DNA of 34,785 nt. Origin: Parcubacteria group bacterium. Its GTDB lineage: Bacteria > Patescibacteriota > Minisyncoccia > Moranbacterales > UBA11712. Positions 12,080-30,538 of the stretch are shown piece after piece (positions within the stretch are counted from its first letter, which is position 1; each line of letters starts with the position of its first letter). The stretch covers positions 3,995 to 38,779 of the forward strand of contig JBAZRT010000003.1 of assembly GCA_041662765.1 (NCBI GenBank). Reading direction: 5' to 3'. Below the pieces are notes generated by a model. It made no database searches. It was not told the DNA's origin and saw only the letters and a list, made by a program, of their open reading frames with translations. A program made the translations under genes and the position numbers.

Positions 12080-12721
12080 ATGATCGGACCTATCTGGAAA
12101 AAAATATTTGGCTTCACTGGCGAAGTGGCGACTGACGCAGTCGTTATCGGCACCCTGGGCAGAATCTGGAAATCTTTGAAGACTCCTGAATTCAAGGAAG
12201 TCAGACAGGGATTGATAAGTCACGGCGCTTGGCCATTCGGGCTGGGCCTTGCTGACGAGGCCGATTTTCTGGCTAGAGTCGGAAAAGGTTTGAAGCCGGA
12301 AGAAGTTATCAGATTAACTAATTTCCTGGTAACTTTAACCGACCAAGAAAGGACGAAGGTTCGTTGCACTATTGCGGCGATAAAGGAATTTCCGGACCGC
12401 CAAACTTTCAGTGCTGAAAAAGGCGGGCGCAAAACCACGAAGGAGTATACCGCCCGCATAGACGACGCTTTGGCCTTTCTTCAAATCTTGGCCTCTGACA
12501 AACTTTCTAACGCCCAGCGGAAGAAACTTTGCAAAGGTCTTGGACTTCTTGATTTTCCGGACATTCAACTTTCTGCCAGATTGGCAACTGCGGCAAAGAA
12601 AGTCAGGAAAACAAGAAAGAGCCTTGAAAAGAAATATGGCCCACTGAAGGCCGCGACGCCTGCAAGCTCTGGTCATATCGACACGTTTTTCAATTGGCTC
12701 AACCGGGTTTTCCCTGTTTGA
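12080..12721 (+). CDS. Hypothetical soluble, mostly helical protein (213 aa); no recognisable family
   Basis: Long ORF with a good SD (aagggag, 7 nt upstream). The local GC is visibly higher than the surroundings. It ends in a TGA that is in frame with the next ORF. Confidence 0.7.
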   Translation: MIGPIWKKIFGFTGEVATDAVVIGTLGRIWKSLKTPEFKEVRQGLISHGAWPFGLGLADEADFLARVGKGLKPEEVIRLTNFLVTLTDQERTKVRCTIAAIKEFPDRQTFSAEKGGRKTTKEYTARIDDALAFLQILASDKLSNAQRKKLCKGLGLLDFPDIQLSARLATAAKKVRKTRKSLEKKYGPLKAATPASSGHIDTFFNWLNRVFPV

Positions 12722-12739
12722 GCCGGCCAAGGAGACGAC

Positions 12740-13996
12740 ATGAACAGCCTATCACAGATGATCAATGATATCGTAGTGATCTTTCGGATTGCCTTCCGTC
12801 AAACCGGTCTGGATGATACCCAGAGGCTGAGGAATACTCTGATCTCCATAATCGTTCCTCTCGCGGCTTTGTACATCTGCCAGCTAATGCTTAGCGAGTT
12901 GAATGGTATAACCGGTTGGGATCTCTCCTGGATCACAATGGTCTTGTCCATGGCGGCAACATTCTTCATCTTTCGCGCCCTTTTCAACCTCAGGAGATTA
13001 CTCTCCCTGGGTTTTATCGGCGAAGGACTGGAGGCGCTTGGACTTTCTCCGGCAGAATATCCAACTTCCCGTTTATTTCGAGCCTACTGGAATCTCGTGA
13101 AAACGATCTTCTTTTGGGAGCTGGTAATCATCTTCTTTCTGCCATACTTTGATCTAACCCAAAATCCACTTGTTGGATGGTCTCTCTTGGTGGGATCCAT
13201 CGCTTATCTCATTGTGTACCCAGACGGGAAGTTCTTTCAAAAATTCTCCGCCTGGGCGATAGTGGCGATATTGATTTTGATGGTCACGCAAGTGATTATT
13301 TCTCCAGCCGCTTGGATAAAGCTTATTGGAGTGGATCCCTTTGGAGCCATGAGAACTTCAGGGACTGACCGGGTCCTGGCGGAAACACTCTCCGATCAAA
13401 AAGAGGCCGAGGACGCGAAAACCGTAATCCGCCTCAAAGAGATCAAAAAGAAAATCAAGCAGCGCAAGGAACTCTCCCCCGATGACAAGAAATTCATCGA
13501 GGAGCGGAAGAAAGGCCTCGTGCAAGAGACCTTCGGAAAGATCTTTTCTTCGTCCGCCGATGCTAAAAGTTCACCCAAAAAGAAGGAGATGAAACAGTAC
13601 ACGATAATTCGACCGCTTGAATTTCTGGGAGGAGAAAAGATAATTCACGGATCGGGTTGTGTGGGCGTACGGAAAGGTGGAAAGGCCGAGTTTCGAGCCA
13701 CAAACCTTCCGATCGTGAAAGATGGCAAGTACAAAGTAATCTTTCACGCAACCCGTAAAACAACCGGCAGGGATTATCTCTTGGTCAACGCTGGCAAAGG
13801 ACACGGCGGACCGTTCTACTATGATAACCACCCAGCCTCTGACAGCCCCATCGAAATAACCTTTTTTAAGGAGGGTATGCCAGGGGACTCGAAGTACTTC
13901 TATCCGACCGACAACTTTATTCAGCTGTCGGCGGATGACGACTTACTTGTCCAACTGGACAACCCGCCATATGTGGAAATCACATACTGGCAATAA
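12740..13996 (+). CDS. Hypothetical membrane protein: about 6 TM helices, a charged coiled-coil-like linker and a C-terminal ~150-aa beta-rich domain
   Basis: Strong SD aaggag 5 nt before the ATG. Hydrophobic helices span aa 30-200, followed by a KEAEDAKTVIRLKEIKKKIKQRKE linker. I recognise no family. Confidence 0.75.
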   Translation: MNSLSQMINDIVVIFRIAFRQTGLDDTQRLRNTLISIIVPLAALYICQLMLSELNGITGWDLSWITMVLSMAATFFIFRALFNLRRLLSLGFIGEGLEALGLSPAEYPTSRLFRAYWNLVKTIFFWELVIIFFLPYFDLTQNPLVGWSLLVGSIAYLIVYPDGKFFQKFSAWAIVAILILMVTQVIISPAAWIKLIGVDPFGAMRTSGTDRVLAETLSDQKEAEDAKTVIRLKEIKKKIKQRKELSPDDKKFIEERKKGLVQETFGKIFSSSADAKSSPKKKEMKQYTIIRPLEFLGGEKIIHGSGCVGVRKGGKAEFRATNLPIVKDGKYKVIFHATRKTTGRDYLLVNAGKGHGGPFYYDNHPASDSPIEITFFKEGMPGDSKYFYPTDNFIQLSADDDLLVQLDNPPYVEITYWQ

Positions 13997-14041
13997 AAAA
14001 ATCCCCGCGCCTTGAGCATCGCTCTCGGCCGCGGGGATTTT
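13997..14041. terminator. Bidirectional terminator between the convergent 12740 gene and the pilin-like gene
   Basis: atccccgcg (14001-14009) pairs with cgcggggat (14030-14038), flanked by an A-run and a T-run. Confidence 0.7.
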
Positions 14042-14074: not shown

Positions 14075-14416
14075 TCATGATCCGCCCAGAAGAAGATCCA
14101 CCGCAGTGATGACCACCAGTCCAATAAGTCCAATAACGACTCCCATGATCGACCAGGTCATCTGCTTTTTGGCTTTTTCCTGAGCCTTGTCATCGCCCGC
14201 GGAAAGAAAATACATTATTCCACTCACAACAAAACTGATAATCGCCAGAAACCCGAAGATTCCCAAAATCCAATTTGTGAGATTTGAGATTACAGTGGTT
14301 AAGTCTTTGTTGGAAAGACCTGTGCCCGTCGGCAACGTAACTTCCGCGCTTGCCGAACAAACGACAAAAAACAATGCGATAGAAAAAGAAGTTAGGCGAA
14401 ATAAATATTTTTTCAT
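14075..14416 (-). CDS. VirB2/TrbC-like 'pilin' family small membrane protein (CPR type), paralog 1
   Basis: Signal peptide (..CSASA/EV), TM1 ILGIFGFLAIISFVVSGIMYFLSAGDD, loop KAQEKAKKQM, TM2 WSIMGVVIGLIGLVVITAV. Confidence 0.8.
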   Translation of the reverse strand: MKKYLFRLTSFSIALFFVVCSASAEVTLPTGTGLSNKDLTTVISNLTNWILGIFGFLAIISFVVSGIMYFLSAGDDKAQEKAKKQMTWSIMGVVIGLIGLVVITAVDLLLGGS

Positions 14417-14439
14417 ATGCTTAAAAATAATTCCAAGAA

Positions 14440-14820
14440 CTAAGTGCCCGTCGCGGTAGCACTCAAGAAGTAATCAATAGCAGTGATCACTACAAGACCG
14501 GCAAGGCCGACGAGCACCCCCGTAATGGAATATATCATCGCCCGCTTGGCTCTTGCCTGCGCGTCTTCGTCACCAGCTGAAATTAAGTAGAGTATTCCGG
14601 AGATCACAAACCCGATCACAGCAATAAAGCCAAAAATAGCCAATAGCCAAAGAGCAAGGTTTGAAATTATGTCGTTCAGCGGTTTTTTGGAAAGTTTCGT
14701 CACATCAAGTTTTGTCTTGTCCCACTGGCCTAGTGCCATCTGCGAATTTGTGAGTGCGACAAAAAATGCCATTGACACCACTGAAAAAAATTTTGTCCAA
14801 TATTTTTTTTGTTTTTCCAT
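14440..14820 (-). CDS. VirB2/TrbC-like 'pilin' family small membrane protein, paralog 2
   Basis: WLLAIFGFIAVIGFVISGILYLISAGDEDAQARAKRAMIYSITGVLVGLAGLVVITAI. It has its own promoter. Confidence 0.8.
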   Translation of the reverse strand: MEKQKKYWTKFFSVVSMAFFVALTNSQMALGQWDKTKLDVTKLSKKPLNDIISNLALWLLAIFGFIAVIGFVISGILYLISAGDEDAQARAKRAMIYSITGVLVGLAGLVVITAIDYFLSATATGT

Positions 14821-14850
14821 TATTTTTTGTTAAGTTTTTAGGTTGATTGG

Positions 14851-14878
14851 ATTATACCATATTTTTTTTGATAAGCAA
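14851..14878 (-). promoter_or_regulatory. Promoter for paralog 2 (TTGCTT-16 nt-TATAAT, TGg extended -10)
   Basis: The reverse complement reads ttgctt atcaaaaaaaatatgg tataat. Confidence 0.5.
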
Positions 14879-14907
14879 AACCCCGTTTCTTGCAAGAGAC
14901 GGGGTTT
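14878..14907 (-). terminator. Rho-independent terminator after paralog 3
   Basis: aaaccccgt / acggggttt stem, with a U-tract on the minus strand. Confidence 0.6.
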
Positions 14908-14930
14908 AAAACTCGAGTTTCAATTGATGA

Positions 14931-15287
14931 CTAGATTTGTTGAGCGCCCAAAAGTTGTTGAGCGGCATAAAGGATGACAAGACCCACAAGACCCACAACA
15001 ACACCCGTAATGGAATATATCATCGCCCGCTTGGCTCTTGCCTGCGCGTCTTCGTCACCAGCCGCGACAAGATACAAAATACCGCTGATAACGAAACCAA
15101 TAACAGCCACAAAACCGAGGATTCCCAAAAGCCAAAGCATTACATTCTGAATAATACTAAATATACTCGATTGCTGAAGACCTGTATTGCCCCCTGCAGT
15201 AAGATCTATTTGAGCCAGTGCTATCGCTGGGACCAGAAAAATGGCAGATGTCAGATACGCTACGGCTATTTTTATTTTTTCCTTCAT
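14931..15287 (-). CDS. VirB2/TrbC-like 'pilin' family small membrane protein, paralog 3
   Basis: WLLGILGFVAVIGFVISGILYLVAAGDEDAQARAKRAMIYSITGVVVGLVGLVILYAA. The start is moved to ATG 15287 because GGGAGGTGA (a strong SD) sits 4 nt upstream of it and lies inside the tracked 15305 start region. Confidence 0.8.
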   Translation of the reverse strand: MKEKIKIAVAYLTSAIFLVPAIALAQIDLTAGGNTGLQQSSIFSIIQNVMLWLLGILGFVAVIGFVISGILYLVAAGDEDAQARAKRAMIYSITGVVVGLVGLVILYAAQQLLGAQQI

Positions 15288-15321
15288 TAATTCACCTCCC
15301 TTCAAAATAAATATTTTTAAA

Positions 15322-15915
15322 TTATCCTCCGATAATATTCTTTACTTGAGTTGCGATTACAAGAGCTGAAAGAGCAACTACGAGACCCAAGATGGAATAA
15401 GTGGCCGTTTTCTTTCCAAGCTCGTATCTTTCATCGTCGCCAACAGCTGTAAGCATCCAAATCGCACCGACTACCATTGATATTATAGCAAGAAAACCGA
15501 CGATTGACAAAAGGAGCTTCAAAATGTTGGCCAGAATTGTCTGGAAGGTCGAACCGGGAGAGTTCCCGCTCAAAATAGCTTTTACTTCCGTATAGATATA
15601 CGGAGCAGCAAGCACGATGGCAAGTCCCGCAATCGCGAAGATGAGTGTTTTTTTTGCCCGCTCGGCTGCTTCTTTTGATCCACCTGAAACCATATACATT
15701 ATACCTCCAAGGATGATGAAAATCACGGCAATTGTTCCGGCAATCTTTTGAAGATAGCTCATAATGCTTGAAAGCACACCTTCGAACGTATCGGTGGGAG
15801 CGAGAGGATTGCCGAAGGTTCCTCCGCTGGTGGTCGTCTGAGCCAAGACAAATGAACCGACGCCAAAGAAAAGAATAGCAGCAAGGAGAAGTAAAACTAA
15901 AGATCTTTTTTTCAT
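15322..15915 (-). CDS. Tandem double VirB2/TrbC-like 'pilin' module protein (197 aa)
   Basis: Two consecutive copies of the TM-loop-TM module: IAVIFIILGGIMYMVSGGSKEAAERAKKTLIFAIAGLAIVLA and IVGFLAIISMVVGAIWMLTAVGDDERYELGKKTATYSILGLVVALSALVIA. Confidence 0.8.
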   Translation of the reverse strand: MKKRSLVLLLLAAILFFGVGSFVLAQTTTSGGTFGNPLAPTDTFEGVLSSIMSYLQKIAGTIAVIFIILGGIMYMVSGGSKEAAERAKKTLIFAIAGLAIVLAAPYIYTEVKAILSGNSPGSTFQTILANILKLLLSIVGFLAIISMVVGAIWMLTAVGDDERYELGKKTATYSILGLVVALSALVIATQVKNIIGG

Positions 15916-15948
15916 TTTGGTTAGTGTTAAAACAATTAGAAATATTGT

Positions 15949-16674
15949 TTATGGCTCGAGTGGCTCGTATATTTCAATCAATTTATCCAGGCAGGAGGGA
16001 GAGGTCGAAATGATAACGCCATTGAGGGAAACATGATAGTTTATCGAGCTTATTTTTCCTCCCGGCAAACGGACTTCGGCATATCTGAACTTGCCATCCT
16101 TGAATTCCAGTTTTTGATCCAATTCTTCTTTGCTAAAATTCACCTCCGGAAACAATACCGCATGAAGATCGGAAAGCATCGTTTTTTCCCAATTCCCCAT
16201 CCAAGTCAGAGTACCGGAATATAGATTACCCTGGCCCTTACTGACATCATATCCAAAGTATATCGCATATTTTTTTTCATTGCCATCCGCAGGGCAATAA
16301 TACATGTCATAGTCCTTGTTGTCCAAATAAGTTCTTAACTGCCCGATAATCGAGATCTTTGTGGCTTTTCCAAAGTCAGTCAACGGAATTTTATTGCCCT
16401 GCGCGTCCTTGAAGCTTATTGATTCAATTCCTTTATCAACAGCTTGCTGAGAAACTGGAGATTCGGAAATATTCTTGATATTTGTTTGAACACTTTGGAT
16501 GTTTTGTTTGCTATTTTCTGTCTCGGTTGGAAGCACTGTCGGATTCGATACCGACGGTTGTTCGGCATTTTGAATGTTGGTCTTATTTCCGGATTTTGTA
16601 ACAATTAAAAAAGCAAGAGTGATCAGCACCAATATTCCTGTTCCTACTAATATAAATAATGTCTTTTTTTTCAT
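15949..16674 (-). CDS. Hypothetical N-terminally membrane-anchored extracytoplasmic protein
   Basis: Signal anchor LFILVGTGILVLITLAFLIV, a low-complexity S/T/N/Q linker, then a globular ~150-aa domain. I recognise no family. Confidence 0.7.
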   Translation of the reverse strand: MKKKTLFILVGTGILVLITLAFLIVTKSGNKTNIQNAEQPSVSNPTVLPTETENSKQNIQSVQTNIKNISESPVSQQAVDKGIESISFKDAQGNKIPLTDFGKATKISIIGQLRTYLDNKDYDMYYCPADGNEKKYAIYFGYDVSKGQGNLYSGTLTWMGNWEKTMLSDLHAVLFPEVNFSKEELDQKLEFKDGKFRYAEVRLPGGKISSINYHVSLNGVIISTSPSCLDKLIEIYEPLEP

Positions 16675-16695
16675 CCTCTTGATCTTTTAAAAATT

Positions 16696-17625
16696 TTAGC
16701 AGCTTGAGGCGGGACAATGATCGGAAGCTTTTATCACTTTCAAAGTTGATCCGTTCTTCGCCGCTTGAGCGCTGATGGATGCCGAACCGCCTCCGCTAGC
16801 ATGAATTCCGTATTTTGTGCTCGCGCCCATAATCTGCGTGCAACCGTCGTTGAGACAAATACCCACATGACCCTTGCTATCTTTACCTGGCAGGCCGTTG
16901 TTCCAAACCAACGCATCCCCAGCTTTGAGACTGCTCGCGCCTGTGAACGCGCTAGCACCTGCAGCCATTGCGCTTGTTGATCCGCCCGGGCTGCTGCATC
17001 CGGCTCTTGTAAAAGCGCGTTCGGTTGTAGATGAACAATCGCCATATCCATCCTTCATTCGAAGACTTGTGTCTGTTGTATATGTCCATCCCTCCATTGC
17101 TTTGACATGTGAAGCAACTGCAGCGCATCCGGTACTCGTCCCCGTATTCGTATTTGTGTTCGTATTTGTGCCTGTCCCAGTGCCCGTACTCGTGCTTGTC
17201 GTTTGTGTCGTGTCGCAAGTGAACTCATACCATTTTCCGCTGAACGGATGTTTGAATCCAAGAGCCGAAAGCGTTGCGTTGATGATAAGCCACGCAACGA
17301 GCGCGAGAACCATCGCAGTAAGAGCATAGGAGAGGGCAGATTTCGCCTTTTCTATCATCCCTTTGTTTCCACTCGAAACCATATACATCACTCCCGCAAC
17401 AACAACCACGAGAGTCGTGGCTGACAAAATAAGCGCCAACAAATAATTGTAAATATTTTGGAATCCAAGGATAAGATGACAGAGCGTGCAGTCCGCATTT
17501 CCTTCCCCAATACCGCAGGGCACCAAAGCTTCGGCAAAAGCACTCGAGACAATACTGAACGAAAAAACAAGCAGGCATGACAAAAATAATGTTTTTAGAA
17601 AAATTTTATTTTTTGCTTTTGTCAT
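16696..17625 (-). CDS. Fusion protein: Cys-containing VirB2/TrbC-like pilin module, T/N/G-rich linker and C-terminal NlpC/P60-like cysteine peptidase
   Basis: N-terminus LVPCGIGEGNADCTLCHL then TM-loop-TM (VVVAGVMYMVSSGNKGMIEKAKSALSYALTAMVLALVAWLI). Linker TSTSTGTGTGTNTNTNTNTGTSTG. C-terminal part has GDCSSTTERAF (Cys197) and GDALVW...KGHVGIC (His253), spaced as in NlpC/P60. Confidence 0.8.
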   Translation of the reverse strand: MTKAKNKIFLKTLFLSCLLVFSFSIVSSAFAEALVPCGIGEGNADCTLCHLILGFQNIYNYLLALILSATTLVVVVAGVMYMVSSGNKGMIEKAKSALSYALTAMVLALVAWLIINATLSALGFKHPFSGKWYEFTCDTTQTTSTSTGTGTGTNTNTNTNTGTSTGCAAVASHVKAMEGWTYTTDTSLRMKDGYGDCSSTTERAFTRAGCSSPGGSTSAMAAGASAFTGASSLKAGDALVWNNGLPGKDSKGHVGICLNDGCTQIMGASTKYGIHASGGGSASISAQAAKNGSTLKVIKASDHCPASSC

Positions 17626-17664
17626 CGGTTTGTATATTCGTGCTAAATTCGTAGTTTGTAGAAA

Positions 17665-19137
17665 TTATTTCCTCAAAAGCACGTTCACTGCGTTTTGTGC
17701 TTGATCAAGTGTGTCATGAAGCGAATTGTTTTTGAGCACCACATTGTCGATCATTCCGTCAAAAATTTTCTCGACCGCGAGATTGTCGGGTTGCGCCCAG
17801 CTTTTGGCGATGAGATTGCCCTGAGCAAAAGGGGAGAGAAGAATATCTGATTTTTGTTTTTCGATAAGATCCCGCCGCGCCGCAGGTTTGGATTGGTTTT
17901 TGATATATTCCGCTGCCGGATCGAAATTAGCACTTTCCGTTCCTGCTGCCGCAACCGGCAAGTTCGCACTGAAGGATTGCGGCATTGTGAGAAAGCGGAT
18001 AAATTTCCAACTTTCGGCAATTCTTTGGTTGTCTGTTGCATAGGTATGCTTGTTTTGCTGGGCCACTTTGATAAATTCCTGATTTTGAGCCTTATTCTTG
18101 GAAACCGCATATCCCCAATAATTGGCAAAATCAACATCCAAACCAGCGCCGTTCGCATCTTTGTTTTGCGGAATTCTGGCAATTCCAAGGGACAGCTTTG
18201 GCGCCCGTTCCCCGATTTGCGGAATAAGCCAGGAATAATTGAGCATCATCGCCGTTTTTCCTTCGATAAAGCTGTCTTTCGAGTTATGTTGGAGAGAATT
18301 CCACGTATAAACATCATTTGCTTGATTTGAAAACTTCGTGTAATAAGCCAACGCCGATTCTCCCGGCGACATTTCGCTTCCATAGGTCGTATTTGTAAAA
18401 TCAGCAAAACTGGCTTGATTGTTTTTCGGGTCCATCATACTCGCACCCGACTGCATCATAAGAAGAGTCAAAATGTCTGTCGCCCGATTTATTTTTCCTG
18501 TACCGGCACTCATATCGCTCGACATTCCCATCGCCGCACCGGAGAGAGTAATGTTTCCAAAAGTGTCGACGCGGGTTATTTTTTTCACCGCGCTGTCAAA
18601 ATCAACCCAGGTCGCCGGAGGTGTTGTTATCCCGGCTTGGTTCAACAAATCTTTGTTGTAGTAAAGCGCAAGAGAATCTACGGAGAGAGGAAGCGCATAT
18701 ATCTTTCCATCAGCAACAAAATCCGAAGAGACAACGCCTGCAAATTGATCTTGGACCTGCTTGGGCGTCACAATATCCGCCTGGCTGGATGAAAGATCAT
18801 CTTTCGGCGCCGATGCCAGCTTGTCTTTATGCTTCGTGAGCCAGGTATTGTGAATAAGAAAGACATCCGGTCCGTTTCCCGTTGCAAGCGCGTCCATCAA
18901 ATCATTTTCGTATGAATCGACAGTGAGTTTTTTGTAGACGATATCTTTCACTCGCGGATTTCTTTTCTGATATTCGCTGATAGCTTTTACCATCACATCC
19001 GAATCATCAAAAAGTCCCCAAACCTCAAGGCGAACTTCATAATTTATCGTTGAATTGTTCGAACATCCACAACCAGAAAGAACGACCATCGAGAGGATAA
19101 GAGCGAAAGAGAAAATAACTGATAATTTTTTCTTCAT
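17665..19137 (-). CDS. Lipoprotein, extracellular solute-binding protein (ABC-type, family 1-like); no cognate permease or ATPase nearby
   Basis: Lipobox LSGC at aa 20-23. LEVWGLFDD...GNGPDVFLIHNTW...YALPLSVDSLALYYNKDLL is typical of sugar-type SBPs. Confidence 0.8.
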   Translation of the reverse strand: MKKKLSVIFSFALILSMVVLSGCGCSNNSTINYEVRLEVWGLFDDSDVMVKAISEYQKRNPRVKDIVYKKLTVDSYENDLMDALATGNGPDVFLIHNTWLTKHKDKLASAPKDDLSSSQADIVTPKQVQDQFAGVVSSDFVADGKIYALPLSVDSLALYYNKDLLNQAGITTPPATWVDFDSAVKKITRVDTFGNITLSGAAMGMSSDMSAGTGKINRATDILTLLMMQSGASMMDPKNNQASFADFTNTTYGSEMSPGESALAYYTKFSNQANDVYTWNSLQHNSKDSFIEGKTAMMLNYSWLIPQIGERAPKLSLGIARIPQNKDANGAGLDVDFANYWGYAVSKNKAQNQEFIKVAQQNKHTYATDNQRIAESWKFIRFLTMPQSFSANLPVAAAGTESANFDPAAEYIKNQSKPAARRDLIEKQKSDILLSPFAQGNLIAKSWAQPDNLAVEKIFDGMIDNVVLKNNSLHDTLDQAQNAVNVLLRK

Positions 19138-19170: not shown

Positions 19171-19199
19171 ATTTTACAACAGGTTGTAAAATTGTACAA
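19171..19199 (-). promoter_or_regulatory. Promoter (TTGTAC-17 nt-TAAAAT) overlapped by a 10+2+10 bp perfect palindrome (candidate operator, 19171-19192)
   Basis: attttacaac-ag-gttgtaaaat read directly. The -10 and the spacer lie inside the palindrome. Confidence 0.55.
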
Positions 19200-19203
19200 A
19201 TAC

Positions 19204-19242
19204 AAAAAAGACCCCGCTCTTCGCGAAGGGCGGGGTCTTTTG
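19204..19242. terminator. Bidirectional terminator after gyrA
   Basis: agaccccgc / gcggggtct stem flanked by A- and T-runs. Confidence 0.7.
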
Positions 19243-19263: not shown

Positions 19264-21696
19264 CTACAGAACCGCCGTGGCAGCGATCTTGTCGTCACCG
19301 TTGAGGCGCATCACGCGCACACCTTGCGTCGCACGGCCGAGAATCGAAATACTCCCCATTGGAACACGAATAATCTGTCCTTTTGCGCTGCTTGCAATGA
19401 GATCTGTTTCAATATTGTCGAGATTGATCATATGCGCGCACACAAGTTTTCAGGTTTTTGGAGTAATCTTCGCCGTTTTGATCCCTGACCCCCCTCGACG
19501 CTGAATTTTGTAGGCTTTCATATCTGTTCTCTTCCCAAATCCGTTTTCGGTGAGGATCAAAAGCTGATTGCCTTTCTGATTTTTGAGTACCACATCCATT
19601 CCAACGACTTGATCATTCTTTTTCAAATTGATCCCGCGCACGCCGGCGGCCGTCCGCCCCATGCCGCGCACGTCCGTTTCCTTGAAATGAATAGCCTGGC
19701 CGGCTGAAGTCGTAATGATGATCTCATCCTTTCCGGTCGTCGGAGCAATCCAGCGCAATTCATCACCTTTGGCCAGATTCAAAGCGATAAGACCCGATCG
19801 GCGAACTTTGGCAAAATCTTCAATGGCTGTTTTTTTCACTGTCCCGAATTTCGTCGCCATAAAAAGATATTTTGCTTGAGAATCTTTACCAATAGTGATA
19901 ATCGCCGTTATTTTTTCGTCCGGAGAAATCTGCAAGAAGTTCACAATCGCCTGACCCTTGGCTGTTCGCGAAGAAACCGGAATTTCATAGGCCTTAGTTT
20001 GGAAAACCTTTCCCGTATTTGTGAAAAAGAAAAGATCGTCGTGCGTCATCGCGCTCACTACCATATCAATCGTATCTCCTTCCTTGGTCGTCGCACCGAT
20101 CACGCCCTTTCCGCCGCGCCTCTGCACGCGATAGAGAGAGGGATTCATTCTTTTAACATAGTTGTCCTCGGTAAAAACGATGATTGCTTCCTCGTTTGGA
20201 ATAAGATCCTCTTGTTTGAATTCGCCCACAGCTGATCTCACCACCCGCGTCCGCCGTTCGTCGGCATACTTATCTTTCAACTCTTTGAGTTCGTCCTTGA
20301 TGACGCCCAATATTTTTTTCGGACTCTTGAGAAGATCTTCAAGCTCTTTGATCAATTTCATTTTTTCTTTGAGTTCATCCTCGATTTTCTGGCGCTCAAG
20401 ACCCGCAAGAGTCTGAAGACGCATTTCGAGGATCGCCGTCGACTGCTTGTCAGACAATTTGAACTTTTTCATCAAATTGTCATGGGCGATCTCTTTCGTG
20501 GCTGATTTTCGAATGGTAGCGATAACCGCATCGATGTGATCAAGCGCTTTTTTGAGACCCTCAAGAATATGCGCCCGCTCTTTCGCGATTCGAAGATCAT
20601 ATTGTGTCCGGCGCGTAACAACAACCTGTCGATGCGCTACGAAATACTCGAGCATCGCCTTGAGATTCAGCACTTTTGGCTCAATTCCATCGACAAGCGC
20701 AAGCATATTCACATGGAACGACTTTTGAAGATCAGTAAGGGTGAAGAGCTTGTTGAGAACTTTTTTCGGGAAAGCTTCTTTTTTGAGTTCTATTACGATC
20801 CGCACTCCGTCCTTGTCTGATTCATCGCGAAGATCTCGGATACCCTCGATTTTTCCGGTTTTCACAAGGTCCGCCATCTTCTCTATCATCGCCGCCTTGT
20901 TTGAAGAATAGGTCATCTCCGTCACAATGATCTGAAATTGTCCGCTTTTTGTTTCGACGATCTCAGTCTCAGCCCGGCAGACAATACTTCCACGGCCAGT
21001 GAGATAGGTCTGCACGATATCCGCTTGGTTGTATATCGATCCGCCCGTCGGAAAATCAGGACCCTTCACAAATTGAGTCAGATCTTTCACATCGCAATCG
21101 GGATTTTCAATGAGATAGGCTATGCCGTCGACCAATTCTCCAAGATTGTGCGGGGGAATACTCGTCGCCATCCCGACCGCAATTCCCATTGTGCCGTTGA
21201 GAAGAAGCTGGGGAACTTTGGCCGGCAGAACGGACGGCTCCTGGCGGGATGAATCATAATTGGGAATAAAATCAACCGTTTCCTTTTCGATATCCGCCAT
21301 CATTTCTTCCGCGAGGCTCGTCATTTTGGCTTCGGTATATCGCATTGCCGCCGCATTGTCGCCATCCATCGAACCGAAGTTTCCCTGACCGTCCACAAGG
21401 GGATAGCGCATGGAAAAATCCTGTGCAAGACGCACCATCGTGTTGTATACTGCCAAATCGCCGTGAGGATGATATTTCCCAAGCACATCTCCGACAACAA
21501 GTGCTGACTTTCGATATTTCGCGCTGTGCGTAAGCCCGAGACCGCGCATGGCAAAAAGGATCCGGCGATGCACCGGCTTCATTCCGTCCCGCACGTCAGG
21601 AAGAGCGCGCGAAACAATCACGCTCATTGCATAGGCGAGATATGATTCCTTCATTTCTGAAGTTATTTCTCTGGGTTTTATATAACCTATTTCCAT
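19264..21696 (-). CDS. gyrA: DNA gyrase subunit A, full length (810 codons) only if the in-frame TGA at 19450-19452 is read through; otherwise truncated at 748 aa
   Basis: N-terminus ..[38 protein letters not shown] (catalytic Tyr). The C-terminal pinwheel repeats continue in the same frame after the TGA ([10 protein letters not shown]...[26 protein letters not shown], then TAG at 19264-19266). Confidence 0.9.
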
Positions 21697-25797: not shown

Positions 25798-27624
25798 ATG
25801 AAAAACTTTATAAAAAATCTGGCAATCATCCTCCTTGTATTCTTCGTCATATCCGGAATTGTGATGCTTTTCAATACCCCGGCGCAGCAGGTGCAAAACA
25901 TCACTCTCAATGAACTCGCCACTCGGATCAACGACGGGAAAGTGAAGGATGTTTTGGTGAACGGAGAAAGTCTCGATATCACGCTTACCGACGGCACCAA
26001 GGAAAAATCAAGAAAAGAAGCGGATGCAGCCCTCACGGAATCACTGAAAAACTACGGAGTTTCTCCTGAACAACTGCGCTCTGTCAATATCAGCGTCAAA
26101 GACACGACCTCAAACGCCTTTTGGATCAATATTGTTCTTCCGTTTCTTTTGCCGTTTATCATAATCGGCGCGTTTTTGTGGTATATGATGCGCTCGGCCC
26201 AGCGCGGAAACAATCAAGCGCTCTCTTTTGGAATGTCGCGGGCGCGCCTCATCTCTCCTCAGAAAAATGGAAAGAAAAAAATCACCTTCGCGGATGTCGC
26301 CGGAGCTCAGGAAGCTAAAGAAGAATTGAAAGAAATCGTTGATTTTTTGAAACACCCGAAAAAATTTCTGGATCTTGGCGCGCGCATTCCCAAAGGAGTC
26401 CTTCTTCTTGGCGCTCCCGGAACAGGAAAGACTTTGATCGCCAAGGCCGTCGCCGGAGAAGCTAATGTTCCATTCTTTAGCATCTCCGGTTCGGAATTCG
26501 TGGAAATGTTTGTCGGAGTCGGCGCCAGCCGCGTTCGCGATCTCTTCAAGACAGCCAAGAAAAGCGCGCCGGCTATCGTTTTCATCGATGAAATCGACGC
26601 AGTCGGCCGTCATCGCGGAGCGGGACTTGGCGGAGGACATGATGAAAGAGAACAAACGCTGAACCAGATCCTCGTGGAAATGGACGGTTTCGACACAGAC
26701 ACAAATGTGATCGTGATCGCGGCGACGAACAGGCCCGATGTTCTTGATCCGGCGCTTTTGCGTCCAGGAAGATTTGACCGAAGGGTCGTCATGGACTTGC
26801 CGGACATCAAGGAGCGCGAAGCTATCCTCAATATACATTCAAAAAACAAACCACTTGAAAAAAATATTGATTTCAAGGTCATTGCCTCGAGAACCCCGGG
26901 ATTTTCGGGAGCTGATCTGTCCAACCTGGTCAATGAAGCGGCGATTCTGGCAGCCGGGAAAGGCAGAAAAAATATCTCTATGGAGGAAATGACCGTCTCG
27001 ATTGAAAAAGTCATTTTGGGACCGGAAAGAAAAAGCAAGGTTCTCAACGTCAAAGAAAAAGAAATCACGGCCTATCATGAATCGGGACACGCACTCGTGG
27101 CTTCGAATCTCGAGAACGCCGATCCGGTGCAAAAAGTGTCCGTTCTTTCCCGCGGCCAAGCCGCCGGATATACCTTGAGCGCTCCTATGGAAGACAAGAG
27201 GCTCTATACCCGTGCTTACTTCATCGATGAACTGGCCGTGTTCTTGGGAGGCTATGTCAGTGAAAAGATTATTTTCAAAGACGTTACTACCGGCGCCTCG
27301 AATGATCTTGAGAGAGCGACCGACATGGCGCGAAAAATGGTGACAAGATATGGAATGAGCACTCTTGGTCCGCGCACTTTCGGCCACAAAGAAGAGCTTG
27401 TTTTCCTTGGAAAAGAAATGAGCGAAGAAAGAAATTATTCCGAAGCGACCGCCAAAGAAATCGACATGGAAGTTTCGCGCTTCATTTCGGACGCGTACAA
27501 AACCGCGGAAAAGATCATCAACGAGAAAAAAGAAACACTTGAGCGAATCGCCCAGACTCTTCTTGAAAAAGAAACAATTGAACAAGAAGAGTTTGATAAG
27601 TTGCTAGAAAATAAAGAAAGCTAA
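25798..27624 (+). CDS. ftsH: ATP-dependent zinc metalloprotease FtsH
   Basis: Walker A GAPGTGKT, Walker [31 protein letters not shown], and the zinc motif HESGHA. Confidence 0.97.
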
Positions 27625-27656
27625 GAATCTGAATTTTTGCAGAAAATTTTGTTTGA

Positions 27657-27730
27657 GAATATGATTTTTGTCGAAAAAATGCGTGATAGATTCGCTTATG
27701 GAGCGTCTTTTCGCAACAAAAATCATATTC
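27657..27730. repeat. 74-nt imperfect inverted repeat (15 + 6 bp stem) downstream of ftsH
   Basis: gaatatgatttttgt (27657-27671) pairs with acaaaaatcatattc (27716-27730). cgaaaa/ttttcg extends the stem across a 2-nt bulge. Confidence 0.6.
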
Positions 27731-27773
27731 GAGTTAATTTTCAAAAAAATTAGATTCTTAGCGATATAAAATA

Positions 27774-28745
27774 ATGAACGAAAATACCAAGCCCACAAAA
27801 AAACAAATTCCCTATATTGAAATTCTGAAGCAGGCCGGGCGCATCGTCTGGCAGAACCGCTTTTTGCTTTGGTTCGGACTTCTGATGGCGCTTGGGTCTC
27901 CCGGAAGTTTCAACGTGGGGGGCAACAATAAAGACTTTGGAAAACAAGGCGAAGCAGCTAAGAGCTTTTTCGAAAATCATTGGCAGATCGTTTTCGCAAT
28001 AGCCGCGGTTCTTTTCATAGTCGGAATAATTTTGTTTCTCATATCACTCATCTCAAAAGCCGGACTTGTGAAATCAGTCGATCTCGTATCCCAAAACAAA
28101 AGTACGAATTTCAAAGTTGGCTGGCGATCGGGAAAAAAATATCTCGGAAAACTTTTCAAGCTTTTCATATTATTTTTTCTGGCAACCTTCGTAGTCATGA
28201 TAATTTTGGCTGTTCCCATCGTCTATCTGATCGTTGCAAAATCGTGGGTAAGCGCCGTTTTGGTCGGACTTCTCGCGATTGCGATCTTTGTCCCTCTCAT
28301 GTTCATCTTTTGTCTCACCAAAATCTTCGCTGAATTTTATATCGTCCTTTCTGACCTTCATGTGCGAAGCGCCATTGAAGCAGGCTACAGTCTGCTCCTC
28401 AAAAATATCGGCAACTCGATCATTTTCGGCCTTTTGCTTTTTGTTGTGAGCCTCGCCGCCGGAATTGTTCTTCTTCCGATCGCCGGAATTGCTCTCGTCG
28501 TTCTCTTCCCCGCAGGAGCTATTTTCTATTATCTCAGCAAGATCGCTTTTGCAATCTTCCTCTGCCTTGCTATTTTGCTTTTCCTCGCTGCCATTTTGTT
28601 TGTTTCTGCTATTTTCCAAACATACAAAACCGCTGCCTGGACCTTGTTCTTCCGAGAAATCGCCAAAGTTGAAAAACCGGAAACCGAAAAAGTTGTTGAA
28701 GCAGCGCTCGCAAAACCAATCGTCACCGCGCCGGAAGAAATGTAA
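27774..28745 (+). CDS. Hypothetical polytopic membrane protein (about 6-7 TM)
   Basis: Long hydrophobic helices throughout. I cannot firmly assign a family. Confidence 0.7.
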   Translation: MNENTKPTKKQIPYIEILKQAGRIVWQNRFLLWFGLLMALGSPGSFNVGGNNKDFGKQGEAAKSFFENHWQIVFAIAAVLFIVGIILFLISLISKAGLVKSVDLVSQNKSTNFKVGWRSGKKYLGKLFKLFILFFLATFVVMIILAVPIVYLIVAKSWVSAVLVGLLAIAIFVPLMFIFCLTKIFAEFYIVLSDLHVRSAIEAGYSLLLKNIGNSIIFGLLLFVVSLAAGIVLLPIAGIALVVLFPAGAIFYYLSKIAFAIFLCLAILLFLAAILFVSAIFQTYKTAAWTLFFREIAKVEKPETEKVVEAALAKPIVTAPEEM

Positions 28746-28782
28746 AAATATTTTATTGAAACTAAAAGACTTTTAGCTCTGG

Positions 28783-28944
28783 CTAGAATAAACTAGAACT
28801 TGCATGGTATTCAATATCGGATTGCCGTAAAAAACTTGGTGACTTTACTTTATACTCAACCTGTGCAATAATTTCCTGAACTCTGACAGATTTTAAAGTA
28901 TGTTCTTTATATATCCGAACCAACCAAGAGTATAGATCTTTCAT
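28783..28944 (-). CDS. Doubtful small ORF (53 aa from MKDLYSW)
   Basis: There is only an open frame: no SD and no recognised family. The longer tracked version overlaps the strong SD and start of the 28970 gene. Confidence 0.2.
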   Translation of the reverse strand: MKDLYSWLVRIYKEHTLKSVRVQEIIAQVEYKVKSPSFLRQSDIEYHASSSLF

Positions 28945-28969
28945 GATCCAATGGAAAGGAGGATAAATC

Positions 28970-29704: not shown

Positions 29705-29725
29705 AAGCTGTCGAAAAAATCTCCT

Positions 29726-29764
29726 GGCCATCGTTGAAACGTTTCCGACGATGGCCTTTCATTT
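29726..29764 (+). terminator. Rho-independent terminator
   Basis: ggccatcgt / acgatggcc stem followed by tttcattt. Confidence 0.6.
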
Positions 29765-29787
29765 GCAAATCATTTATAATTTAAAAT

Positions 29788-30387: not shown

Positions 30388-30389
30388 CC

Positions 30390-30411
30390 AGTTCGAATCC
30401 CGCCCGGGATA
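30390..30411 (+). other. Orphan tRNA 3'-end-like fragment (T-loop, T-stem 3' strand, acceptor 3' strand)
   Basis: GTTCGAATCCCGCCCGGGATAA has the T-loop consensus GTTCGAATC. The upstream sequence does not fold into the rest of a tRNA. Confidence 0.35.
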
Positions 30412-30412
30412 A

Positions 30413-30441
30413 CAAAAATCAGGCTTTTCATATAAGCCTGA
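30413..30441 (-). terminator. Terminator of the minus-strand tRNA pair
   Basis: tcaggctt / aagcctga stem; a U-tract follows on the minus strand. Confidence 0.6.
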
Positions 30442-30447
30442 AACTCG

Positions 30448-30520
30448 TGGGCAATACAGGAATCGAACCTGTGACCTCTTCCATGTCAAGGAAGCGCTCT
30501 AACCACTGAGCCAATTGCCC
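30448..30520 (-). tRNA. tRNA-Val(GAC)
   Basis: Reverse complement GGGCAATTGGCTCAGTGGTTAGAGCGCTTCCTTGACATGGAAGAGGTCACAGGTTCGATTCCTGTATTGCCCA. Confidence 0.9.
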
Positions 30521-30538
30521 TTTTGTTAATGATTTTTT

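What the first reader, a model, noticed from the sequence alone, without database searches (positions are those of the whole stretch)
14075..19137. Five VirB2/TrbC-like 'pilin' modules clustered with a peptidase fusion and an orphan SBP, but no secretion machinery
Seen in the sequence:
- Seven co-oriented minus-strand genes run in this order: SBP lipoprotein, pilin-NlpC/P60 fusion, membrane-anchored unknown, double pilin, pilin, then a terminator and promoter, then pilin, pilin.
- Five modules share the architecture variable exposed segment, TM helix, short (S/A)(A/G)G(D/N/S)x..AK(K/R) loop, second TM helix.

Established knowledge: this two-helix hairpin is the fold of T4SS VirB2/TrbC pilins. 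It is also the fold of the small 'pilin' family that is massively expanded in CPR genomes, and to my knowledge no function has been shown experimentally for that family.

Inference:
- No ORF in the whole 34.8-kb window resembles VirB4, VirD4, VirB6, VirB11 or PilB/PilT. These modules are therefore not embedded in a recognisable T4SS or T4P locus.
- They are instead wired to a cell-wall peptidase and a lipoprotein ligand-binding protein.
- That points to an uncharacterised envelope or surface apparatus, possibly for host contact or cell-wall traversal in an episymbiont, rather than a classical conjugation pilus.
Basis: partly seen in the sequence, partly recalled or inferred. Interest (0 to 1): 0.78.

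Follow-up and report, generated by a model that had tools for sequence, protein, structure and literature searches.

The report
Detached pilin array of Patescibacterial T4SS
This is a conserved operon in Moranbacteria (ultrasmall CPR bacteria) that encodes five VirB2-like pilins, one of them fused to a cell-wall peptidase, plus a lipoprotein binding protein; it most likely supplies the pilus and wall-cutting parts of a type IV secretion system whose motor genes lie elsewhere in the genome.

Summary
Seven co-oriented minus-strand genes (14075-19137) encode an SBP lipoprotein, a pilin::NlpC/P60 fusion, a membrane-anchored unknown, a double pilin and three single pilins. All five pilin genes pass the Pfam T4SS_pilin cut-off, giving six hairpin modules rather than five. 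No VirB4, VirD4, VirB6, VirB11 or PilB/T is in the window.

VirB2-like pilin arrays are already described in Patescibacteria: 441 arrays, and pilins near virB4 in only 1135 of 1948 assemblies. One such array is essential by Tn-seq.

The seven-gene order between gyrA and rluA is conserved in 13 related lineages. In three other relatives, orthologues of the SBP, the Cys-motif pilin and the double pilin sit directly upstream of PrgI/VirB3 and VirB4. Paralogous pilin::SLT fusions flank VirB4 in many others. One genome with this exact cluster is listed as VirB4-positive.

So this is most likely the detached pilin and wall-hydrolase module of the known Patescibacterial T4SS, not a separate apparatus.

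I found three features not described in the papers I could search:
- the conserved SBP at the head of the operon;
- the pilin-tethered hydrolases;
- the 240-aa family with no known fold.

The parts
19212..19228 (-). Terminator-like hairpin after gyrA; marks the upstream boundary of the operon
   Evidence: Terminator scan; sequence read.
19171..19198 (-). Promoter-like site (TGTACA-16-TAAAAT) upstream of the SBP gene
   Evidence: This is a consensus match only, 9 of 12 positions.
17665..19137 (-). G7: lipoprotein solute-binding protein of the sugar-SBP family (490 aa), with no transporter partner nearby
   Evidence: SBP_bac_1 84 bits and SBP_bac_8 83 bits. Lipobox LSGC. Closest solved relatives are sugar SBPs. 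Orthologues lie immediately upstream of a Cys-motif pilin in 27 fetched loci, including three linked to VirB4.
16696..17625 (-). G6: signal peptide, Cys-motif VirB2-like hairpin (VPCG..CTLCHL ... FTCDTTQT), Thr/Gly-rich linker, then an NlpC/P60-type peptidase domain
   Evidence: PF18895 30.1 bits and NLPC_P60 22.8 bits. Invariant C37, C46, C49 and C137; H253 is invariant and catalytic C197 nearly invariant. CwlO DL-endopeptidase E=7e-4 and Tn916-like Orf16 hydrolase E=0.024. 90 homologues found, 27 of them with PF00877 precomputed, 23 of those together with PF18895.
15949..16674 (-). G5: N-terminal TM anchor, Q/N/S-rich linker, then an alpha/beta domain of unknown fold; the fastest-evolving gene of the cluster
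   Evidence: No Pfam or NCBIfam hit. AF2 model has mean pLDDT 80, with no PDB Foldseek match (best E=0.12). The family comprises 194 clusters among 1.84 billion representatives. It lies directly after the G6 orthologue in all class-1 loci.
15322..15915 (-). G4: tandem double pilin (signal peptide plus four TM helices)
   Evidence: PF18895 81.3 bits in two stretches; TrbC 54 bits. Hydropathy. G4-like double pilins follow the Cys-motif pilin in the VirB4-linked loci.
14931..15305 (-). G3: single pilin (probable start at the ATG at 15287)
   Evidence: PF18895 46.9 bits. Orthologues are 114-125 aa and 61-92% identical.
14877..14907 (-). Internal intrinsic-terminator-like hairpin plus T-run between G3 and G2
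   Evidence: z-score -2.9. A hairpin with different stem sequences is kept in 12 orthologous loci.
14851..14859 (-). Extended -10 element TGGTATAAT of an internal promoter for G2-G1
   Evidence: Read. Conserved as TGGTATAAT or TTGTATAAT across orthologous loci.
14440..14820 (-). G2: single pilin
   Evidence: PF18895 42.8 bits. 68% identical to G3 in the core; 78% nucleotide identity over 161 nt.
14075..14416 (-). G1: single pilin, last gene of the array
   Evidence: PF18895 49.8 bits. NF045849 (Mbov_0395 pilin-like conjugal transfer protein) 37.6 bits, below its cut-off of 40.
13995..14038 (-). Terminator hairpin (ATCCCCGCG...CGCGGGGAT plus T-run) shared with the convergent gene
   Evidence: Read. 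A plus-strand terminator-like site at 14023-14036 was found.
12740..13996 (+). C1: convergent accessory gene; polytopic N-terminus, charged coiled linker, C-terminal CBM-like beta-sandwich. Membership in the system is uncertain.
   Evidence: No Pfam hit. AF2 C-terminal domain pLDDT about 85-90, matching CBM6/29/4 and Cry toxin domain III at E about 1e-5. Detected in only about 5 of the 13 class-1 lineages.
12080..12721 (+). C2: 213-aa unknown upstream of C1; co-occurs with C1 in some relatives. Membership is uncertain.
   Evidence: No family hit. Present in L001, L002 and L010.

Best explanation
The locus is the chromosomal pilin array of the Patescibacteria-type, Gram-positive-like (MPF-FATA-related) type IV secretion system of a Moranbacterium. 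It is encoded apart from the VirB4 core.

Proposed mechanism:
- Five Sec-exported VirB2-like proteins (six two-helix hairpins) insert into the membrane.
- The VirB4/PrgI machine encoded elsewhere extracts them and assembles them into a pilus or conduit.
- G2 and G1 have their own strong internal promoter and are probably the major subunits.
- G3, the double pilin G4 and the Cys-motif pilin G6 are probably minor or specialised subunits.
- G6 carries an extracellular NlpC/P60 endopeptidase on its C-terminus. This domain plays the VirB1-like role of cutting peptidoglycan peptide stems, in the cell's own wall or the host's, where the structure passes.
- The lipoprotein SBP and the membrane-anchored G5 are conserved extracellular partners. 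The SBP probably binds a glycan or muropeptide ligand at the contact site.

Shown here: family membership of the pilins, retention of the catalytic Cys and His, conserved synteny, physical linkage of orthologous genes to VirB4 in relatives, and the operon signals.

Inferred: assembly by VirB4, filament formation, the hydrolase substrate and the role of the SBP.
For: - All five pilin genes pass the PF18895 cut-off, and G4 also passes TrbC.
- Each module has a signal peptide plus two TM helices, which places the G6 peptidase outside the cell.
- In G6, H253 is invariant and the catalytic C197 is nearly invariant across 24 homologues. The domain matches the CwlO endopeptidase and the Tn916-family conjugation hydrolases.
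- The order gyrA-SBP-G6-G5-G4-G3-G2-G1-rluA recurs in 13 related lineages with one-to-one orthologues.
- Where GyrA is 95% identical, the pilin orthologues are 66-92% identical, while paralogues within the window are only 28-68%. The paralogues are therefore old and individually maintained.
- In L023, L032 and L062 the order is SBP (44-48% identical to G7), Cys-motif pilin, double pilin, PrgI (PF12666), a 229-aa gene, then VirB4, all on one strand with short gaps.
- In most other VirB4 loci a pilin::SLT fusion and a Cys-motif pilin follow VirB4 and B912, a conserved unknown of about 900 aa.
- The VirB4 loci closest in composition to the window carry no pilins next to VirB4.
- The genome of L011, which has this exact cluster, is listed as 'Presence of VirB4: Yes'. 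So are 16 of the 18 Moranbacteria in the first part of that table.
- The literature reports 441 VirB2 arrays, pilins near virB4 in only 1135 of 1948 assemblies, and an essential pilin array in S. epibionticum.
- The internal terminator and promoter are conserved in 12 loci.
Against: - No VirB4, PrgI, VirB6 or VirD4 lies in the 34.8-kb window, or within 10 kb of the cluster in the orthologous loci for which Pfam annotation was returned. The rest of this genome could not be examined.
- No pilus has been seen in any Patescibacterium.
- Pilin-like hairpins are also fused to an esterase, fn3, CARDB and unknown domains. That fits a plain membrane-anchor role as well as a pilus role.
- The NlpC/P60 score is just under the Pfam cut-off, and the third catalytic residue is not evident.
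- The SBP belongs to an ordinary sugar-importer family.
- G5 has no recognisable T4SS counterpart.
Confidence: 0.68

Rival explanations
1. An autonomous envelope apparatus. The pilin-like proteins, the peptidase fusion, G5 and the SBP form a self-sufficient surface structure for host contact. It does not use T4SS ATPases; Sec and YidC insertion and self-assembly would be enough.
For: - No ATPase or channel gene lies in the window or within 10 kb in the orthologous loci with Pfam annotation.
- The cluster has its own promoter and terminators.
- It sits in a stable housekeeping context.
- 2 of the 18 Moranbacteria in part 1 of the published table are VirB4-negative.
Against: - Orthologous SBP, Cys-motif pilin and double pilin genes are co-directional with, and adjacent to, PrgI and VirB4 in three relatives.
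- Paralogous pilin-hydrolase fusions sit inside the VirB4 core locus.
- A genome with this cluster has VirB4.
- All known VirB2-family pilins depend on a VirB4 machine (established knowledge).
Confidence: 0.1
2. Membrane anchors, not filaments. The VirB2-like hairpin is used in Moranbacteria as a general two-helix anchor that tethers extracellular enzymes and binding domains to the cell surface. The small single-module proteins are membrane partners or scaffolds. No extended pilus is built, whether or not VirB4 is involved.
For: - Hairpins are fused to NlpC/P60, SLT, a BD-FAE esterase, fn3, CARDB and large unknown domains, both N- and C-terminal.
- Conserved cysteines on the outer face of G6 (C37, C46, C49, C137) suggest a rigid, disulfide-locked surface stub.
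- No pilus has been observed in Patescibacteria (the literature speaks only of a 'potential').
Against: - Three single-module pilins and the double pilin carry no cargo domain, yet they are conserved at 66-92% identity.
- The separate strong promoter for G2-G1 suggests high-copy structural subunits.
- Scores against the pilin HMMs are strong.
Confidence: 0.15
3. The SBP is only a neighbour. It is the receptor of a carbohydrate ABC importer encoded elsewhere, and its position next to the pilin genes has no functional meaning.
For: - It is a typical SBP_bac_1/8 sugar-binding family member with a lipobox.
- Most VirB4 core loci have no SBP.
Against: - The SBP gene lies immediately upstream of a Cys-motif pilin in different genomic contexts: between gyrA and rluA, before PrgI-VirB4, and several other settings. 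In L005, next to nusA, only bipA is inserted between the SBP gene and the pilin::SLT gene. Gaps are 0-60 bp, at 43-48% identity in the most distant cases.
- No permease or ABC ATPase lies within 10 kb in any annotated locus.
Confidence: 0.2

Closest known systems
Patescibacterial VirB2-like pilin arrays (Quinonero-Coronel et al. 2025, PMC12102498; the essential array in the T4SS cluster SEML1_0006-0019 of Southlakia epibionticum, Wang et al. 2023, PMC10633639)
   Same: Tandem, sequence-divergent PF18895/PF04956 pilin genes in a monoderm CPR bacterium. The array can be interrupted by a non-pilin gene. The pilins are Sec-type. The array is often not next to virB4.
   Different: This array lies in a fixed gyrA-rluA housekeeping slot in Moranbacteria (class Paceibacteria), whereas arrays were reported as most abundant in Microgenomatia and Saccharimonadia. 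Its paralogues are one-to-one orthologous across species. It includes a pilin::NlpC/P60 fusion, a leading SBP lipoprotein and the G5 family, none of which that paper mentions.
VirB2 (Agrobacterium) and TrbC (RP4) conjugative pilins, PF04956
   Same: Signal peptide, two hydrophobic helices and a short charged loop. G4 scores 54 bits against TrbC.
   Different: The organism is a monoderm. The pilin genes are multiple, and fused or doubled. No adjacent VirB3-B11 genes are present. Nothing is known about cyclisation or filament formation.
Peptidoglycan hydrolases of Gram-positive T4SSs (VirB1 analogues): Tn916 Orf14-type NlpC/P60 (PDB 4hpe, 9ubf), PrgK of pCF10, TraG of pIP501
   Same: An NlpC/P60/CHAP-type or SLT-type hydrolase dedicated to a T4SS. 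The G6 C-terminus matches the Tn916-like hydrolases weakly (E=0.024 and 0.65).
   Different: Here the hydrolase is anchored by a VirB2-like hairpin rather than a single TM helix. In relatives the NlpC/P60 domain is exchanged for SLT on the same kind of anchor.
Mbov_0395 family pilin-like conjugal transfer protein of mycoplasma ICEs (NCBIfam NF045849)
   Same: A small two-helix pilin-like protein in wall-less or monoderm bacteria. G1 and G4 score 37-38 bits.
   Different: The scores are below the 40-bit cut-off. The mycoplasma protein belongs to a mobile element, whereas this is a fixed chromosomal operon.
PrgZ, the pheromone-binding SBP encoded on the conjugative plasmid pCF10 (from my own knowledge, not tested here)
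   Same: An SBP lipoprotein genetically associated with a Gram-positive T4SS element and lacking its own permease.
   Different: PrgZ is an OppA-type peptide binder that feeds a regulatory circuit. G7 is a sugar-type SBP placed at the head of the pilin operon, and its role is unknown.
VirB2 paralogue arrays of Bartonella and Anaplasma (cited in PMC12102498)
   Same: Tandem amplification of virB2 genes.
   Different: Those arrays are thought to serve antigenic or host-range variation. Here the paralogues are stable, old and under purifying selection, which points to distinct structural roles.

Membership tests
VirB2/TrbC-type T4SS pilin (PF18895, PF04956) | Profile-HMM match above the curated cut-off | tested here: met
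   PF18895 scores of 30.1-81.3 bits against a cut-off of 26.6 for all five genes. TrbC scores 54 bits against 27.9 for G4.
VirB2/TrbC-type T4SS pilin (PF18895, PF04956) | Signal peptide followed by two hydrophobic helices joined by a short charged loop | tested here: met
   Hydropathy and the loop motif. There are six modules. The loop of module G4b is atypical.
VirB2/TrbC-type T4SS pilin (PF18895, PF04956) | Encoded together with virB4 and other T4SS genes | tested here: not met
   No such gene lies in the window, or within 10 kb in the orthologous loci with Pfam annotation. The feature is met for orthologous SBP-pilin-pilin modules in L023, L032 and L062.
VirB2/TrbC-type T4SS pilin (PF18895, PF04956) | Polymerises into an extracellular pilus in a VirB4-dependent way | not testable with these tools
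   This needs multimer modelling (structure-prediction cap reached) or experiments.
Patescibacterial VirB2 array (PMC12102498) | 2-11 pilin genes in tandem or separated by one non-pilin gene | tested here: met
   Five pilin genes, with G5 as the single interposed non-pilin gene.
Patescibacterial VirB2 array (PMC12102498) | Paralogues strongly divergent (reported mean identity 25%, maximum 54%) | tested here: inconclusive
   Core-module identity is 28-57%, except G2/G3 at 68%. These are local-alignment values, so they are not strictly comparable with the published figures.
Patescibacterial VirB2 array (PMC12102498) | The genome carries a Patescibacteria-clade VirB4 | not testable with these tools
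   Only the 34.8-kb window is available for this genome (its contig is 38.8 kb). The relative L011 (GCA_002790655.1) is listed as VirB4-positive.
NlpC/P60 peptidase (PF00877) | Profile-HMM match above the cut-off | tested here: inconclusive
   22.8 bits against a cut-off of 23. 27 of the 90 homologues have PF00877 precomputed. PDB CwlO matches at E=7e-4.
NlpC/P60 peptidase (PF00877) | Catalytic Cys (D-C-S motif) and His | tested here: met
   H253 is invariant and C197 nearly invariant in 24 homologues. Both align with the CwlO catalytic residues.
NlpC/P60 peptidase (PF00877) | Third polar catalytic residue about 10-12 residues after the His | tested here: inconclusive
   The canonical (I/V)-H-(A/S) position reads I-M-G-A-S in G6 and its closest orthologues. 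More distant homologues have H, E or N there.
ABC-transporter solute-binding protein (SBP_bac_1/8) | Profile match and lipoprotein or signal sequence | tested here: met
   84 and 83 bits. Lipobox LSGC. Sugar SBPs are the closest solved relatives in the PDB.
ABC-transporter solute-binding protein (SBP_bac_1/8) | Adjacent cognate permease and ATPase genes | tested here: not met
   No BPD_transp or ABC_tran hit in the window or in the Pfam-annotated flanks of the orthologous loci.
VirB8/PrgL/TcpC-like bitopic T4SS protein (considered for G5) | N-terminal TM helix plus an NTF2-like extracellular domain | tested here: not met
   The TM helix is present, but the AF2 model (pLDDT 80) has no PDB match at E<=0.001 and no VirB8-family hit among the 50 best matches listed.
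Type IV pilus (T4P) pilins | Class III signal peptide (G|FTLIE-type) and PilB/PilC/PilD neighbours | tested here: not met
   The N-termini are ordinary Sec-type, ending in AxA-like sites. No T4P gene is in the window.

The most novel reading that the evidence does not exclude
The Moranbacterial T4SS is not an exporter with a passive pilus. It is a host-wall-breaching and sensing, or uptake, device. On this reading, VirB2-like pilins serve as carriers that present enzymes (NlpC/P60, SLT, esterase) on or at the base of the structure. A dedicated sugar- or muropeptide-binding SBP lipoprotein is an integral, conserved subunit that couples ligand capture at the host interface to the T4SS. This would be an SBP-dependent T4SS, with the previously unseen G5 fold as a further lineage-specific extracellular subunit.
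Probability: 0.2. Interest if true: 0.8.

Novelty: new variant of a known kind. Interest (0 to 1): 0.45.

Why it matters
The T4SS and its pilin array are among the few machines shown to be essential for the epibiotic life of a cultivated Patescibacterium, and what they transport is unknown.

This locus shows several things for Moranbacteria:
- The pilin array is a stable set of non-redundant paralogues with a major/minor-like transcriptional split.
- Wall hydrolases are tethered directly to pilin hairpins, which may explain why separate VirB1 homologues are reported as rare.
- An SBP lipoprotein is genetically coupled to the pilins, even at the head of a PrgI-VirB4 operon.

These observations give concrete, testable candidates (the SBP ligand, the G6 substrate, the G5 fold) for how ultrasmall bacteria breach or read the host envelope. 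They also warn that T4SS surveys limited to the virB4 neighbourhood miss conserved components.

Tried and rejected
- Alternative genetic code (25 or 4), prompted by an in-frame TGA in gyrA. Rejected: several genes end in TGA, and ORFs do not merge sensibly under those codes.
- G5 as a VirB8-like protein. Rejected: no PDB fold match.
- G5 as a homologue of U384, the 384-aa gene that follows the Cys-motif pilin in VirB4 core loci.
  - hhalign gave 97% probability with my own alignments, but at only 11% identity.
  - With independent alignments the match shrank to the TM helix and linker (93% probability, columns 1-94).
  - A profile search of 1.84 billion representatives found almost only proteins of about 230-270 aa.
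  - I treat this homology as unsupported.
- C1 as a VirB6-like channel. Its membrane part modelled poorly (pLDDT below 50). Only a C-terminal CBM-like beta-sandwich is confident, and C1 is absent from most orthologous loci. I keep it as a possible accessory only.
- Linking a VirB4 contig (L109) to a cluster contig (L041) from the same metagenome by tetranucleotide composition. Not supportive: r=0.90, rank 29.
- Looking up the window's own G6 protein in the contig index. Not on record.
- Searching for DGR-type template/variable repeats near the reverse transcriptase at the window end. None found.
- The automatic terminator and promoter scan missed the G3-G2 signals. They were found by reading and folding the sequence and confirmed by comparison across loci.

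Full report
**1. Observation**

ORF listing confirms seven co-oriented minus-strand genes between 14075 and 19137:

| Gene | Coordinates | Length | Description |
|---|---|---|---|
| G7 | 17665-19137 | 490 aa | SBP lipoprotein |
| G6 | 16696-17625 | 309 aa | pilin fusion |
| G5 | 15949-16674 | 241 aa | unknown |
| G4 | 15322-15915 | 197 aa | double pilin |
| G3 | 14931-15305 | 124 aa | pilin |
| G2 | 14440-14820 | 126 aa | pilin |
| G1 | 14075-14416 | 113 aa | pilin |

Pfam results:
- PF18895 T4SS_pilin is above its curated cut-off (26.6 bits) in all five pilin genes. G1 scores 49.8, G2 42.8, G3 46.9, G4 81.3 in two stretches, and G6 30.1.
- TrbC/VirB2 scores 54 bits in G4.
- SBP_bac_1 scores 84 bits and SBP_bac_8 83 bits in G7.
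- NLPC_P60 scores 22.8 bits in G6, against a cut-off of 23.
- G5 has no hit.

There are therefore six hairpin modules in five genes, not five modules.

Hydropathy gives each module a Sec-type N-terminus plus two TM helices, with four TM helices in G4. G5 has one N-terminal TM helix and G7 has a lipobox (LSGC). With the usual VirB2 topology, the G6 peptidase domain lies outside the cell.

The rest of the window is housekeeping: a TPR protein, NusA, PPase, trigger factor, ClpP, L19, RluA, GyrA, S1, Gmk, TilS and FtsH. It also holds an integrase, a LysM-CHAP protein and a reverse transcriptase. No VirB4, VirD4, VirB6, VirB11, PilB/T, ABC permease or ABC ATPase is present. The genetic code is standard, because TGA ends several genes.

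**2. Operon signals**

- A terminator-like hairpin follows gyrA at 19228-19212. A promoter-like site precedes the SBP gene.
- Between G3 and G2 there is a GC-rich hairpin with a T-run at about 14877-14907. An extended -10 element, TGGTATAAT, lies at 14851-14859.
- In 12 orthologous loci the same gap holds a hairpin with quite different stem sequences. It is followed by a T-run and a conserved TGGTATAAT or TTGTATAAT.
- The array is therefore split into two units, SBP-G6-G5-G4-G3 and G2-G1. The second has its own strong promoter.
- A further hairpin ends the array at about 13995-14038.

**3. What is already known**

- Quinonero-Coronel et al. 2025 (PMC12102498) surveyed 3,035 Patescibacteria genomes.
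  - VirB4 there is of a Gram-positive-like (MPF-FATA-related) clade.
  - VirB2-like pilins (PF04956/PF18895) occur in 1,948 VirB4-positive assemblies but near virB4 in only 1,135.
  - They found 441 'VirB2 arrays' of 2-11 genes.
  - VirB1 homologues are rare, and relaxases are mostly absent.
- Wang et al. 2023 (PMC10633639) and a 2025 review (PMC12857230) report that the six-pilin array in the Southlakia epibionticum T4SS cluster is essential by Tn-seq.
Pilin arrays away from virB4 are a known pattern.
- None of these texts mentions an SBP. No indexed paper combines VirB2, NlpC and Patescibacteria.

**4. Relatives and synteny**

- G6 has 90 homologues; the sources that name them call most Moranbacteria or Parcubacteria. 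27 have PF00877 precomputed, 23 of these together with PF18895. Two have an SLT domain and one a CARDB domain instead.
- Contexts came from contig look-ups, a genome-collection scan and phmmer mapping.
- These show the order MBL-U182 (a conserved unknown of about 150 aa)-gyrA-SBP-G6-G5-G4-G3-G2-G1-(C1, C2)-rluA in L001-L004, L006-L013 and L040-L046. That is 19 loci from 13 distinct lineages.
- Orthologues are one-to-one in the closest relatives, where G1, G2 and G3 each hit their own counterpart best. In more distant loci the G2-position gene is closest to G3.
- Where GyrA is 95% identical, the other genes compare as follows:

| Gene | Identity to the window's gene |
|---|---|
| SBP | 82-83% |
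| G4 | 74-83% |
| G3 | 75-92% |
| G2 | 67-84% |
| G1 | 66-83% |
| G6 | 51-68% |
| G5 | 32-71% |

- Paralogues within the window are only 28-68% identical. They are therefore old and individually maintained. This argues for distinct structural roles rather than antigenic variation.
- The convergent pair C1/C2 is detected in only about 5 of the 13 lineages.

**5. The link to the T4SS**

- A second class of loci found with the Cys-motif pilin has the following order:
  - U370, a conserved unknown of about 370 aa;
  - a VirB4-like ATPase of about 610 aa (P-loop_TraG, AAA_10, DUF87, TraC_F_IV);
  - B912, a conserved unknown of about 900 aa;
  - a pilin::SLT fusion;
  - a Cys-motif pilin;
  - U384, a conserved unknown of about 384 aa.
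- A metagenome scan with a VirB4 alignment returned 80 more VirB4 loci, most with this layout.
- The decisive result comes from three loci, L023, L032 and L062. Each carries, on one strand with short gaps: SBP, Cys-motif pilin, double pilin, a PrgI/VirB3-family protein (PF12666), a gene of about 229 aa, and VirB4.
- The SBPs in these three loci are 44-48% identical to G7 over about 450 residues and have lipoboxes.
- SBP followed by a pilin array also occurs in other contexts: L005 (with a pilin::SLT in place of the pilin::NlpC/P60), L030, L033, L034, L036, L037 and L039.
- The VirB4 core loci closest in composition to the window (L065, L074, L075, L079) have no pilins next to VirB4. In L065 an SBP gene begins about 9.7 kb downstream of VirB4.
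- Table S1 of the 2025 paper lists the genome of L011 (Moranbacteria CG_4_9_14_3_um_filter_44_28), which carries the full gyrA-rluA cluster, as VirB4-positive. It also lists 16 of the 18 Moranbacteria in its first part as VirB4-positive.

**6. The individual proteins**

*G6*
- It has invariant cysteines before TM1 (VPCG..CTLCHL) and after TM2 (FTCDTTQT). All are on the outer face, which suggests disulfide locking (an inference).
- Next come a Thr/Gly-rich linker and a C-terminal domain. In that domain H253 is invariant and the catalytic C197 (D-C-S motif) is nearly invariant.
- The C-terminal domain matches CwlO DL-endopeptidase (E=7e-4) and Tn916-like conjugative-transposon wall hydrolases (E=0.024 and 0.65).
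- The third catalytic residue is not evident.
- Relatives carry SLT, BD-FAE esterase, fn3, CARDB or unknown domains on the same kind of hairpin.

*G5*
- It models confidently (pLDDT 80, domain above 85) but has no PDB fold match.
- Its family has 194 clusters among 1.84 billion representatives, almost all of about 230-270 aa, and no Pfam domain.
- A possible relation to U384 did not survive checking.

*G7*
- It is closest to sugar-binding SBPs such as MBP1 and MalE-like proteins. Partial NCBIfam hits are to GanS, MalE, UgpB and NgcE.

*C1*
- It has a poorly modelled polytopic N-terminus and a confident CBM-like jelly-roll C-terminus.

**7. Mechanism**

The best-supported reading is that this locus encodes the pilin and wall-hydrolase module of the Patescibacterial T4SS. 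The ATPase core is encoded elsewhere and acts in trans.

Steps that are shown:
- pilin family membership;
- an extracellular position for the peptidase domain, given the usual VirB2 topology;
- a retained Cys-His pair;
- conserved synteny and operon signals;
- physical linkage of orthologous SBP-pilin-pilin genes to PrgI-VirB4 in relatives;
- VirB4 present in a genome with this cluster.

Steps that are inferred:
- VirB4-dependent extraction and polymerisation of the pilins;
- G2 and G1 as major subunits;
- G6 acting like VirB1 on the cell's own or the host's peptidoglycan;
- the SBP and G5 as extracellular partners at the host interface.

The rivals are an autonomous apparatus, hairpins as mere anchors, and the SBP as an unrelated neighbour. 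They are scored in the Rival explanations section.

**8. Novelty**

The kind of feature, a VirB2-like pilin array in Patescibacteria that is often detached from virB4, is published. Four features of this variant are not in the accessible literature:
- the SBP-pilin coupling;
- the hairpin-tethered hydrolases, with NlpC/P60 and SLT exchanged on the same anchor;
- the G5 family;
- the conserved internal terminator and promoter.

I rate it a new variant of a known kind, with moderate interest.

Noticed in passing
window 19450-19452 (gyrA, minus strand): gyrA carries an in-frame TGA at codon 749. The 59-aa ORF at 19264-19443 continues the same frame, giving 810 codons in all, the same length as the orthologues. 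In 11 orthologues this position is an invariant Gly (GGA or GGG where the codon was read). The cause is a single G-to-T change, a sequencing error, or a read-through or recoding site. TGA is otherwise a genuine stop in the window.
   Followed up: partly
window 31309-34698: The window ends with a tyrosine recombinase (31309-32244, minus), a LysM-LysM-CHAP wall hydrolase (32556-33752, plus) and an RVT_1 reverse transcriptase (33802-34698, minus). No template/variable-type repeats were found in 27000-34785, so whether the RT belongs to a DGR, a retron or a group II intron is open.
   Followed up: partly
window 12080-13996 (plus strand): A convergent gene pair, C2 (213 aa, no hits) and C1 (418 aa). 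C1 has at least four TM helices, a highly charged coiled linker and a confident CBM6/CBM29-like beta-sandwich. The pair sits at the 3' end of the pilin array in L001-L003, L010 and, partly, L008 and L025, but is absent from the other orthologous loci.
   Followed up: partly
L014-L027 and L047-L126 (VirB4 loci): The VirB4-like ATPase is unusually conserved among Moranbacteria: 83-99% identity among eight genomes whose neighbouring genes are far more divergent. The core locus has a recurrent layout with several unannotated families: a polytopic gene of about 700-800 aa, U370, a PrgI-like gene, a gene of about 229 aa, VirB4, a gene of about 170 aa, a 6-TM gene of about 235 aa, and B912.
   Followed up: partly
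L029:5479-8583, L035:9445-11658, L017, L022, L044:14742-16400: PF18895-like hairpins are embedded in large proteins (440-1034 aa). These carry a BD-FAE/alpha-beta-hydrolase esterase domain, an fn3 domain or unknown domains, sometimes N-terminal to the hairpin. This suggests that pilin hairpins are a general carrier for surface enzymes in this lineage.
   Followed up: partly
L065:21575-21821: A G7-like SBP gene begins about 9.7 kb downstream of VirB4 on the same 97-kb metagenomic contig, at the edge of the fetched locus. Whether a pilin array follows could not be seen.
   Followed up: no
L062:12689-15391: Directly downstream of VirB4 in the SBP-linked T4SS operon lie a ComM-like Mg-chelatase-family AAA+ protein and a G5/DPBB (RpfB-like) lytic transglycosylase. 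This is another wall-remodelling enzyme next to the T4SS.
   Followed up: no
window 14492-14652 vs 14977-15137: The TM-loop-TM cores of G2 and G3 are 78% identical at the DNA level over 161 nt (68% at protein level), much closer than any other paralogue pair. This suggests a more recent duplication or gene conversion across the internal terminator and promoter.
   Followed up: no
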